Assembly: GCA_048940445.1 (NCBI GenBank)
Contig: JBHLON010000007.1
Coordinates: forward strand, 1 to 64,000
DNA: 64,000 nucleotides
Reading direction: 5' to 3'
Origin: Promethearchaeota archaeon
Lineage (GTDB): Archaea; Asgardarchaeota; Lokiarchaeia; Sigyniarchaeales; SOKP01
Part shown: positions 59,454 to 61,229 of the stretch, piece after piece
How the letters are laid out: each line of letters begins with the position of its first letter
Numbering within the stretch: position 1 is the first letter of the stretch
Translations under genes and position numbers: made by a program
Notes under the pieces: generated by a model
The model's database searches: none
Told to the model about the DNA's origin: nothing
Seen by the model: the letters and a program-made list of their open reading frames with translations, nothing else

Positions 59454-60065
59454 ATGCCTTTTTACAATGTTGCAGAGAATGGTTCTTTACGAAAAGTTAC
59501 AAAATTGCATTTTAGTGATAACAATAGAGTATATCTGATCGACACAGACAACATAATTTATCTCTGGTATGGTGAAAAAGCATCGAAAAAGAAGAAGAAT
59601 TTGGGATTAAATAGAGCTAAACAACTTAAAGAAAAAAAGGAGATCTCTGCAAAAGTTCAAATAATTCAACAAAATCAAGAATTCGGAGGATTCTTAGCAA
59701 TAATGGAAGCTTATAAAGCTAATGGAGCTATCGATGGTAATATTAAACTGCGCCCTGAATTAGAATTAGAAGTGGAGGATACAAAAGAACTTATTGAAGC
59801 GGGTTTAGAACCAGATCTTATTGCAGAGATAAATATAGCAGCATATGAACTTACTCAAAAAAATAAAGAGTATAAAGAATTATGTACAGAACTTGCTAAA
59901 TTACAATTGTCTATTATCAAAGGAAAAGGAAAAAAAATCACTGAAAATGAGATTAAAAGGAAATCAGAAGTAATTTTAAAATCATCAGCAACTTACGAAG
60001 AAGTTTGTTGGTTAATTTCTGAGCTGAGTATCTTATCTAACAAGAAAATTTTTAAGAAACATTAA
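59454..60065 (+). CDS. Asgard one-domain gelsolin + helical domain X protein (1DGelX-like)
   Basis: VYLIDTDNIIYLWYGEKAS...IIQQNQE..F gelsolin domain; C-terminal duplicated helix AAYEL..YKELC..LA / SEVI..TYEEVCWLISE. Confidence 0.7.
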   Translation: MPFYNVAENGSLRKVTKLHFSDNNRVYLIDTDNIIYLWYGEKASKKKKNLGLNRAKQLKEKKEISAKVQIIQQNQEFGGFLAIMEAYKANGAIDGNIKLRPELELEVEDTKELIEAGLEPDLIAEINIAAYELTQKNKEYKELCTELAKLQLSIIKGKGKKITENEIKRKSEVILKSSATYEEVCWLISELSILSNKKIFKKH

Positions 60066-60140: not shown

Positions 60141-60635
60141 CTAATTATTTTCTATAATTTTTTGAATTAATTTCTCAATGTTGCTATCAATAATCTTTAA
60201 AATTTTTAAGTAAGTTTCAGAATTCGTATAGTAGGGATCTAAAATGTCAGGGTTAAATGAGTCTCCATTAAATTCTTTAAGAGTTAAAATTTTCTTGTCA
60301 ATATCTTTGATATTGGAGTATGTTCTAATTATTTCAACTGATTGTGCTTTCTCCATAGTTAAAATTAAGTCTTGTTTTTCCAAAAGTGCCTTATTGATAA
60401 GCTGAGGTCGAAAATCTGAATGATCTATACCTTTGGAATTTAAATATTCATGAGACTTTGGTTGCATATAAGAAAAGACATTTATAAAACCGGCGCTCTT
60501 AAAAGAAAGATTAATATTAGATTTTTTCGCATAATAACGTGCTAAATATTCAGCTACGGGACTCCTGGCTGTATTTCTGGCTTTCTAATTAATACTTCCA
60601 GTACAGACAAAGAGTATAGATTTGATTTTTTTCAT
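60141..60635 (-). CDS. Low-molecular-weight protein tyrosine phosphatase/arsenate reductase family; join(60635..60596, 60574..60141), 157 aa after removing a 21-nt insert
   Basis: Spliced product MKKIKSILFVCTGNTARSPVAEYL...FKSAG...DLILTME...DILDPYY has an intact CX5R P-loop and DPYY acid loop. The ORF track only shows the 108-aa tail. Confidence 0.85.
60575..60595 (-). other. Candidate bulge-helix-bulge (tRNA-type) intron in a protein-coding mRNA, 21 nt, with in-frame UAG
   Basis: mRNA CUGUA-CUGG-AA^G-UAUUAAUUAGAAAG-CCAG-AA^A-UACAG: 5-bp exon helix, 3-nt bulge, 4-bp helix, 3-nt bulge. Canonical cuts remove exactly GUAUUAAUUAGAAAGCCAGAA. Confidence 0.75.
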
Positions 60636-60707: not shown

Positions 60708-61229
60708 CTACGGTTTATCTTCTTCAAGTTTATTAATTTTTATAATTCTTTCAACTACTTTGATTACTCCATTTTCTATCCTTTGTAAAACTTTTTTATA
60801 CTCATTTTGATCTAAATTAAACGGATCTTTTATATCTAAGTTTTCTGTTTCACCAGCAAACTCTAATAATAAGAATAATTTATTATCCAGACCTTGTAAG
60901 TTCTTATATTTTCTCTTTAATTTATCGATATGTCTTTTTCTTTCAAACCCAATGATAAGATCTTGTTTTTTTAGTAATTTTTCATCAATTCTTTTAGCTT
61001 TAAAATCGGAAATGTCTATATTTTTAGATTTAAGATAATTGACAGTACCTTCCTGAGGGCGGTCGTAATAATGATAAATTCCTGCTGAATCGAATACAAC
61101 TTCTTTTAGGTCTTCTTTATACTTATTTTTTTGGAGCCATTTTGAAAAGTATTCTGCAAATGGACTCCTACATGTGTTTCCTGCACAAAACCACAATACA
61201 CGATGGATTCTGGTCATTTTATCTATCAA
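60708..61229 (-). CDS. Low-molecular-weight protein tyrosine phosphatase (uninterrupted paralog)
   Basis: WFCAGNTCRSP, DSAG, DLIIGFE, DIKDPF. Confidence 0.9.
   Translation of the reverse strand: MIDKMTRIHRVLWFCAGNTCRSPFAEYFSKWLQKNKYKEDLKEVVFDSAGIYHYYDRPQEGTVNYLKSKNIDISDFKAKRIDEKLLKKQDLIIGFERKRHIDKLKRKYKNLQGLDNKLFLLLEFAGETENLDIKDPFNLDQNEYKKVLQRIENGVIKVVERIIKINKLEEDKP

What the first reader, a model, noticed from the sequence alone, without database searches (positions are those of the whole stretch)
60555..60635. Candidate bulge-helix-bulge (tRNA-type) intron inside the catalytic P-loop of an LMW protein tyrosine phosphatase mRNA
Seen in sequence: on the minus strand the gene reads ATG AAA AAA ATC AAA TCT ATA CTC TTT GTC TGT ACT GGA A[GT ATT AAT TAG AAA GCC AGA A]AT ACA GCC AGG AGT. 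The 21-nt insert (60575-60595) carries an in-frame UAG and splits CTG|NTARS. The RNA folds as CUGUA/UACAG (5 bp), bulge AAA, central helix CUGG/CCAG (4 bp), bulge AAG, then a weak intron-side stem. The exon helix extends further (ACUC/GAGU). Established: archaeal EndA cuts after the second nucleotide of each 3-nt bulge flanking a 4-bp helix, and RtcB ligates. Applying that rule removes exactly this 21-mer and regenerates CTGNTARS in frame with the rest of an intact 157-aa phosphatase. The neighbouring paralog (60708..61229) has the uninterrupted CAGNTCRS. The archaeal mRNA BHB intron I know of is in crenarchaeal cbf5. Inference: in an Asgard-like archaeon, the tRNA splicing machinery may gate expression of a signalling phosphatase (unspliced gives a 16-aa peptide). 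This is conceptually similar to non-spliceosomal HAC1/XBP1 splicing.
Basis: partly seen in the sequence, partly recalled or inferred. Interest (0 to 1): 0.95.

Follow-up and report, generated by a model that had tools for sequence, protein, structure and literature searches.

The report
tRNA-type mini-intron in Asgard phosphatase gene
A 21-base insert with a stop codon splits the active-site codons of a phosphatase gene in an Asgard (Loki-type) archaeon; it has the shape that the tRNA-splicing enzyme cuts and thirteen diverged copies keep that shape, so the messenger RNA is very probably spliced, which in the papers I could search is reported for the coding part of only one other archaeal gene (cbf5).

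Summary
Confirmed. A 21-nt insert (60595-60575, minus strand, in-frame UAG) splits the P-loop Asn codon of an otherwise intact 157-aa LMW-phosphatase gene in a Promethearchaeota genome. It folds as a bulge-helix-bulge (BHB). I found 13 distinct same-site copies (20, 21, 22 and 33 nt; the 20- and 22-nt ones shift the frame), with compensatory changes in all three helices. In three copies only the EndA-rule cut rebuilds C-x-G-N-T-A-R-S. Exon 2 is under purifying selection (dN/dS 0.16-0.42), and another public assembly holds the identical insert. The genome has a two-subunit EndA and RtcB. Six more genes carry BHB inserts, including the only purA match, and metG is split too. Splicing itself was not observed: no RNA run was listed. 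Regulatory gating is unsupported, because most relatives lack the intron and such introns also sit in housekeeping genes. 'Tyrosine' specificity is unproven: P-loop position 5 is Thr, as in the arginine phosphatase YwlE. This scan has already noted this intron in another genome, and many similar Asgard mRNA introns. In print I found only cbf5 and a Haloferax 5' UTR intron.

The parts
60596..60635 (-). Exon 1 of the LMW phosphatase (paralog B): ATG to the first base of the P-loop Asn codon; includes the nucleophile Cys codon
   Evidence: orthologs start at the same place
60575..60595 (-). 21-nt BHB intron, phase 1 within the Asn codon; in-frame UAG at 60587-60585
60141..60574 (-). Exon 2: 144 codons to the stop, intact, with the catalytic Arg and the DPY general-acid motif
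   Evidence: PF01451, E 5e-19; dN/dS 0.19-0.29 to the nearest intron-bearing copies
60598..60601 (-). Exon strand of the 4-bp central helix (CUGG)
60577..60580 (-). Intron strand of the 4-bp central helix (CCAG)
   Evidence: covaries with the exon strand in G017/G019
60595..60597 (-). 5' bulge AAG; predicted cut between 60596 and 60595
   Evidence: EndA rule (established)
60574..60576 (-). 3' bulge AAA; predicted cut between 60575 and 60574
   Evidence: EndA rule (established)
60602..60615 (-). 5' strand of the exon-exon helix (5 bp, one bulged base, 8 bp)
   Evidence: synonymous sites here are constrained in intron-bearing copies
60561..60573 (-). 3' strand of the exon-exon helix
   Evidence: A-U to G-C compensation in G065
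60582..60594 (-). Intron-side stem-loop (4 bp in the consensus, one mismatch in this copy), followed by one unpaired base at 60581
60708..61229 (-). Upstream tandem paralog A, uninterrupted here (37% identical); in G017 and G019 it is paralog A that carries the same intron

Best explanation
The insert is a tRNA-type intron in an mRNA. The transcript folds into a 13-bp exon-exon helix, a 4-bp central helix flanked by two 3-nt bulges, and a short intron stem with one extra base (a slightly relaxed hBHBh'). The cell's two-subunit splicing endonuclease cuts after the second base of each bulge and RtcB joins the exons, restoring the Asn codon of the C-x5-R loop and a 157-aa phosphatase. Splicing is most likely constitutive and uses the same route as this organism's many non-canonical tRNA introns and its other mRNA introns. 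The intron is then a tolerated passenger that persists in active-site codons, where imprecise deletion kills the enzyme; it is gained or moved together with its exon flanks (once into the neighbouring paralog) and lost precisely. Shown: sequence, conservation, covariation, selection, presence of the enzymes. Inferred: cleavage, ligation, constitutive use, route of spread.
For: 13 distinct same-site copies of 20, 21, 22 and 33 nt, all interrupting translation by a stop or a frameshift. Compensatory changes in the central helix (C-G to G-U), exon helix (A-U to G-C) and intron stem. In L197, L198 and G020 the only excision register that rebuilds the P-loop is the EndA-rule cut, and register 0 is the only one shared by all 12 copies tested. 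Frameshifting 20- and 22-nt versions keep exon 2 intact. dN/dS 0.16-0.42 within intron-bearing clades. Flank synonymous divergence 0.38 vs 0.65 distally in cross-clade intron pairs, but 0.71 vs 0.68 in intron-less pairs. Two EndA paralogs over the TIGR00324 cut-off, and RtcB. Motif-free comparison with G017: 6 of 8 high-confidence disruptive inserts have a BHB vs 1 of 14 stop-free in-frame indels, P = 0.002. BHB-driven scan: 6 homology-supported introns with true geometry, 0 with shifted geometry. The only purA match is stop-interrupted by a BHB insert.
Against: No spliced transcript, circular intron or peptide was observed. The window's copy has the weakest intron stem of the set, and G020 and G065 each have one mismatch in the central helix, so cleavage efficiency may vary. 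The intact paralog A next door could buffer loss of B. The 13 copies fall into only about 5 lineages and are not independent.
Confidence: 0.8

Rival explanations
1. Real intron, but regulated: splicing efficiency changes with conditions and gates phosphatase output, in the manner of HAC1/XBP1.
For: All copies block translation when unspliced. The motif is slightly relaxed and could be a marginal substrate. In Haloferax the mRNA with a BHB intron in its 5' UTR drops when endA is repressed (PMC7714728).
Against: Only 6 of 42 genomes of the genus were seen to carry it. Close sisters have it or lack it (G022 vs G006). It sits in paralog A in some species and paralog B in others. Equivalent introns interrupt housekeeping genes. 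No regulated nuclease is known here.
Confidence: 0.12
2. Paralog B is a pseudogene killed by an inherited insertion that happens to fold; paralog A does the job.
For: An intact paralog is adjacent. No RNA evidence of splicing is in hand.
Against: No second lesion in any of 13 copies, whose distal synonymous sites are near saturation between clades (pS about 0.6-0.75); dN/dS 0.16-0.42; covariation. In G017 and G019 the intron is in paralog A, with dN/dS 0.16.
Confidence: 0.03
3. The insert is bypassed at translation (stop read-through, recoding, ribosomal hopping) or an internal start makes a catalytically dead protein.
For: The window's insert is a multiple of 3. Gene callers annotate 108-155-aa truncated products.
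Against: Stop type and position vary (UAG, UAA). The 20- and 22-nt copies shift the frame. Seven extra residues would break the C-x5-R spacing. Exon 1 and its Cys are conserved. The register is fixed at the EndA position.
Confidence: 0.04
4. Assembly artefact.
For: The genome is a draft in 139 contigs.
Against: Identical insert in a Logan contig and diverged versions in many unrelated samples.
Confidence: 0.01

Closest known systems
BHB intron in the cbf5 pre-mRNA of Crenarchaeota (Watanabe 2002; Yoshinari 2006; Yokobori 2009, PMC2738675)
   Same: Short insert in coding sequence; lies between the first and second base of an active-site codon; often relaxed BHB; host has a hetero-oligomeric EndA; patchy gain and loss.
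   Different: Different gene and phylum (Promethearchaeota); one of at least seven BHB-split genes in this genome rather than a single case; found in either of two tandem paralogs; splicing not yet shown experimentally here.
BHB intron in the 5' UTR of Haloferax volcanii HVO_1309 (Schwarz 2020, PMC7714728)
   Same: mRNA substrate of the tRNA splicing endonuclease.
   Different: Untranslated region, 46 nt, shown in vitro and as a circle; does not interrupt a reading frame.
Non-canonical tRNA introns of Asgard archaea (bioRxiv 10.64898/2026.10.13.758758)
   Same: Short AT-rich inserts at BHB motifs, repeatedly gained, two EndA paralogs; this genome's tRNAs carry such inserts.
   Different: In tRNAs. 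A term search of that paper found no occurrence of 'mRNA' or 'cbf5'. No tRNA intron similar to this one was found in the genome.
HAC1/XBP1 non-spliceosomal splicing (own knowledge)
   Same: Endonuclease cut plus tRNA-ligase joining of an mRNA.
   Different: Uses the stress-activated nuclease Ire1 on two stem-loops, not EndA on a BHB; no evidence of regulation here.
Host protein: LMWPc family (PF01451); YwlE arginine phosphatase and LMW-PTPs
   Same: C-x5-R-S loop and DP(Y) acid; best PDB matches YwlE (E 1e-13) and an LMW-PTP entry 2gi4 (E 1e-13); Thr at loop position 5 as in YwlE and DARP (PMC7772506).
   Different: Ala instead of the second Cys at position 6; below all NCBIfam cut-offs; no PF00217 (McsB-type kinase) match in this 93%-complete genome.

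Membership tests
Archaeal BHB (EndA-spliced) intron | 4-bp central helix between exon and intron strands | tested here: met
   CUGG/CCAG; 98-100% of cells paired across copies, one both-side change; one mismatch each in G020 and G065
Archaeal BHB (EndA-spliced) intron | Two 3-nt bulges on opposite strands, cut after the second base | tested here: met
   AAG and AAA; register 0 is the only one that restores the P-loop in all 12 copies tested and is unique in 3
Archaeal BHB (EndA-spliced) intron | Flanking exon helix (h) | tested here: met
   5 + 8 bp, 92-93% paired, A-U to G-C compensation
Archaeal BHB (EndA-spliced) intron | Strict intron helix (h') directly abutting the central helix | tested here: not met
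   A 4-bp covarying stem exists but is offset by one unpaired base, and has an A-A mismatch in the window: a relaxed motif, of the kind (alpha-beta)2 and epsilon2 enzymes accept (PMC5829648 abstract; PMC2738675)
Archaeal BHB (EndA-spliced) intron | Host encodes EndA and an RNA ligase | tested here: met
   Two EndA paralogs, one with the Tyr/His/Lys triad by inspection, and RtcB
Archaeal BHB (EndA-spliced) intron | Excision shown in RNA or in vitro; circular intron | not testable with these tools
   No RNA holder was listed; no 157-aa spliced-form protein among the hits
Group I / group II self-splicing intron | Ribozyme core of more than 100-200 nt | tested here: not met
   21 nt; no Rfam match in the window
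Homing-endonuclease-bearing mobile archaeal intron | Intron-encoded nuclease ORF | tested here: not met
   Longest same-site copy is 33 nt; no long version among the listed matches of 151 genomes, though 99 weaker matches were not listed
Regulated non-spliceosomal mRNA splicing (HAC1/XBP1) | Signal-dependent cleavage | not testable with these tools
   Patchy distribution argues against it
LMW protein tyrosine phosphatase (strict) | C-x5-R-S loop and general-acid Asp | tested here: met
   After excision
LMW protein tyrosine phosphatase (strict) | Hydrophobic (Ile) residue at loop position 5 and phosphotyrosine preference | tested here: not met
   Thr at position 5, linked to phosphoarginine specificity (PMC7772506); activity itself not testable here

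The most novel reading that the evidence does not exclude
Loki-type Asgard archaea routinely splice mRNAs with the tRNA endonuclease and ligase, and these mini-introns form a mobile class that moves with its exon flanks between species and between paralogs without a nuclease gene of its own, landing in catalytic motifs. This would be a pre-spliceosomal, intron-bearing protein-coding transcriptome in the closest relatives of eukaryotes.
Probability: 0.6. Interest if true: 0.92.

Novelty: new variant of a known kind. Interest (0 to 1): 0.78.

Why it matters
The papers I could search treat coding-sequence introns in archaea as a single case (cbf5). Here an Asgard archaeon appears to need mRNA splicing for at least seven proteins, among them adenylosuccinate synthetase and mevalonate kinase (and EF-1alpha in a congener). 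If so, Asgard gene catalogues miss or truncate such genes (public databases hold this one as 108-155-aa fragments), endonuclease/RtcB splicing of mRNA is in use in the closest prokaryotic relatives of eukaryotes, and transcription-translation coupling must leave room for RNA processing. This locus is a compact test substrate: a 62-nt RNA whose natural variants pin down the cut site.

Tried and rejected
RNA evidence: the look-up of sequencing runs (kind rna) listed no RNA holder, so no reads could be laid; this says nothing on expression. Searching protein collections for a spliced full-length form: nothing near-identical to an intron-bearing gene; the full-length hits in the G022 clade are 75-89% identical to the intron-bearing genes, and the two I looked up are intron-less genomic alleles. 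Ab initio BHB plus broken-ORF scans without homology are swamped by noise (18 candidates vs 14 and 22 with shifted geometry). The 'shared intron' test between G000 and G017 is uninformative because the genomes are too close (about 500-620 hits under true and shifted geometry). Only about 2.66 Mb of G017 could be fetched, so intron counts are lower bounds and shared introns are missed by the census. No donor for the intron among the genome's tRNA introns or elsewhere at up to 4 mismatches. No Rfam hit in the window. The promoter scan is bacterial-type and at chance level. The thirteenth row of alignment A2 ('G006_probe') had wrong coordinates and should be ignored; it affects only the helix-3 counts (one of the both-side changes at column 25), so one search is the clean count for that helix. 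Nine of the 12 metagenome pattern hits were chance matches. P0124 is short because of an N-terminal miscall, not an intron; P0129 had no DNA. The 32-nt metG insert did not pass my strict BHB filter. The second tree (N-terminal 32 residues removed) is the quick version only.

Full report
Observation. On the minus strand an ATG at 60635 opens 13 codons plus one base, followed by 21 extra bases (60595-60575) with an in-frame UAG and then 144 open codons to the stop at 60141. The downstream part is an LMWPc-family phosphatase lacking only its first residues. Removing the 21 bases gives 157 aa with the loop C-T-G-N-T-A-R-S and the DPY acid. The RNA folds with a 4-bp central helix, two 3-nt bulges on opposite strands and a 5 + 8 bp exon-exon helix. 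The folding z-score of the single sequence is not significant, so the case rests on comparison. A Logan contig, possibly from the same sample, has the identical insert.

Host. The genome is 3.64 Mb, 30% G+C, 93% complete. Congeners are deposited as Promethearchaeota / Lokiarchaeota. It encodes two EndA paralogs above the TIGR00324 cut-off. By inspection one has the Tyr/His/Lys triad and the other lacks the His (triad from own knowledge), which fits the (alpha-beta)2 type reported for most Asgard genomes. RtcB is present, and many tRNA genes carry short AT-rich inserts at non-canonical places.

Relatives. Most orthologs are uninterrupted. Six of 42 genomes of the genus carry an insert at exactly this site (G000, G017, G019, G020, G022, G065); none was seen among the listed matches in other genera. 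Seven further distinct versions came from metagenomes. Ten are 21 nt, one 20, one 22 and one 33 nt. Every one stops or shifts the reading frame, and exon 2 is open to its normal stop in the 12 copies translated and is a called 155-aa ORF in the thirteenth. RNAalifold on ten copies returns the full BHB and a 4-bp intron stem without being told the structure. Pairing is 93% against 34-50% for slid registers, with both-side changes in the central helix and the intron stem and, when G065 is added, in the exon-exon helix. The copies are related, so shuffle counts are not probabilities.

The cut site. In the window four excision registers would restore the loop. In L197, L198 and G020 the first and last bases of the insert have both changed, and the only register that gives back the invariant Asn is a cut after the first base of its codon. 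That is where EndA cuts, after the second base of each bulge (established; restated). Substitutions and length changes are thus tolerated inside the predicted intron and not outside it. Frameshifting 20- and 22-nt versions (the latter in three samples) exclude read-through.

The gene is alive. Exon-2 dN/dS is 0.19 and 0.29 between the window and its nearest intron-bearing relatives, and 0.16-0.42 within the other clades. Synonymous sites in the 15 codons around the intron differ at 0.38 between intron-bearing copies of different clades (0.65 further downstream), whereas intron-less pairs show no such dip (0.71 vs 0.68). This is expected if exon flanks are part of the splicing signal, or if they travel with the intron.

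History. On a protein tree of 64 copies the intron needs at least four changes, forced by well-supported branches; the quick tree without the N-terminal region gives the same count (G020, G065 and the 22-nt copy were found later and are not on it, and duplicate loci were left out). Three groups lie in paralog B and one in paralog A (G017, G019, L204), whose flanks resemble B (3 non-synonymous differences in 33 sites vs 0.44 distally). G006 lacks the intron but keeps intron-type flanks nearly identical to G022, which looks like a precise loss or a recent gain. One old gain with many losses and one conversion between the tandem genes, or repeated transfer with co-conversion, both fit; I could not separate them.

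Not a single case. A motif-free comparison of G000 with 2.66 Mb of G017 found further disruptive inserts with near-perfect flanks: in G000 a UvrA-like gene (31 nt), an alpha-mannosidase-like gene (30), a Rab-like GTPase (30) and an unnamed gene (30); in G017 EF-1alpha (33, in the P-loop) and one more (33) (gene names from motifs, own knowledge). Six of eight high-confidence disruptive inserts have a BHB against one of 14 stop-free in-frame indels (P = 0.002). A BHB-first scan gave six homology-supported introns with true geometry and none with shifted geometry. The only purA match has two stops in a 30-nt BHB insert. Mevalonate kinase has a 31-nt one, shared with G017 with a compensatory U-A to C-G change. 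metG is split by 32 nt at its HIGH motif, though that insert failed my strict filter. Earlier notes of this scan pointed me to purA, mvk and metG. An organism with these genes split very probably must splice mRNA, which makes splicing of the phosphatase message the economical reading.

Mechanism. Shown: anatomy, conservation, covariation, selection, enzymes. Inferred: EndA cleavage at 60596/60595 and 60575/60574, RtcB ligation, release of a 21-nt intron, translation of the 157-aa enzyme. I favour constitutive splicing of a tolerated passenger (0.8) over regulated gating (0.12), because presence is patchy, the intron switches paralog, and housekeeping genes carry the same kind of insert. The bias to catalytic motifs may reflect that only precise loss is viable there, targeting of conserved sites, or ease of detection.

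The enzyme. It is LMWPc family but below all NCBIfam cut-offs. The best solved relatives of the intron-less ortholog are YwlE and an LMW-PTP at equal score. Loop position 5 is Thr, which in YwlE and DARP confers phosphoarginine preference (PMC7772506); no McsB-family kinase was found with PF00217. Substrate is open.

Prior knowledge. Splicing of cbf5 pre-mRNA in Crenarchaeota is the published coding-sequence case, and introns in other genes were only 'predicted' (PMC2738675). In 2020 it was still called the only additional example beside the Haloferax HVO_1309 5' UTR intron (PMC7714728). An October 2026 preprint on Asgard tRNA introns does not use the word mRNA, and four further searches found no report of Asgard mRNA introns; subscription papers are not covered. 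This scan's own notes already describe this intron in another genome and many similar ones, two reportedly with spliced RNA; I did not check those RNA claims.

Verdict. Real, very probably a spliced BHB intron (about 0.92 including the regulated variant), a new variant of a known kind. Interest 0.78.

Noticed in passing
G000:C134:73804 (minus), locus L183: Only purA match, interrupted by a 30-nt BHB insert with two in-frame stops in the GDEGKG loop.
   Followed up: partly
G000:C78:74291 (minus); G017:C28 about 379870-379900: Mevalonate kinase split by a 31-nt BHB insert in both genomes, central helix with a compensatory change.
   Followed up: partly
G000:C10:14380-14412 (plus), locus L180: metG split by 32 nt just before the HIGH motif; did not pass my strict BHB filter, so probably a relaxed motif.
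   Followed up: partly
G000:C63:31236 (minus), C78:67401 (plus), C72:22765 (minus), C134:109550 (plus): UvrA-like, alpha-mannosidase-like, Rab-like GTPase and an unnamed gene, each with a 30-31-nt BHB insert that G017 lacks.
   Followed up: partly
G017:C11:167345 (minus) and C17:23476 (plus): EF-1alpha P-loop and one more gene carry 33-nt BHB inserts that G000 lacks; C23:175447 (30 nt) is a further strong candidate shared by both genomes.
   Followed up: partly
G000:C47:63579 (plus): A 30-nt in-frame insert without a stop that also folds as a BHB: possibly a cryptic intron that no broken-gene search would find.
   Followed up: no
G000:C65:2933 (plus): Deacetylase-like gene with a 32-nt disruptive difference to G017 that has no BHB; possibly a pseudogene or an unresolved junction.
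   Followed up: no
L030 (G006) and L212: Intron-less alleles that keep the intron-type exon flanks and sit inside an intron-bearing clade: precise loss or very recent gain.
   Followed up: partly
window 59454-60065 (plus): Gelsolin-repeat protein convergent on the phosphatase pair; nadB-like and DeoC/LacD-family aldolase genes diverge on the other side. In other members a macro-domain gene follows paralog B (L213, L215).
   Followed up: no
G000 tRNA genes, e.g. C61:59350-59522, C97:10690-10822, C72:26564-26700, C67:30070-30180: Several tRNA genes carry one to three non-canonical short inserts that ARAGORN misses or misassigns.
   Followed up: partly
L005, L007, L015, L016: A third tandem LMWPc paralog with a variant loop (C-Y-A-N-T-C-R-S) in part of the genus; up to four copies per genome.
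   Followed up: no
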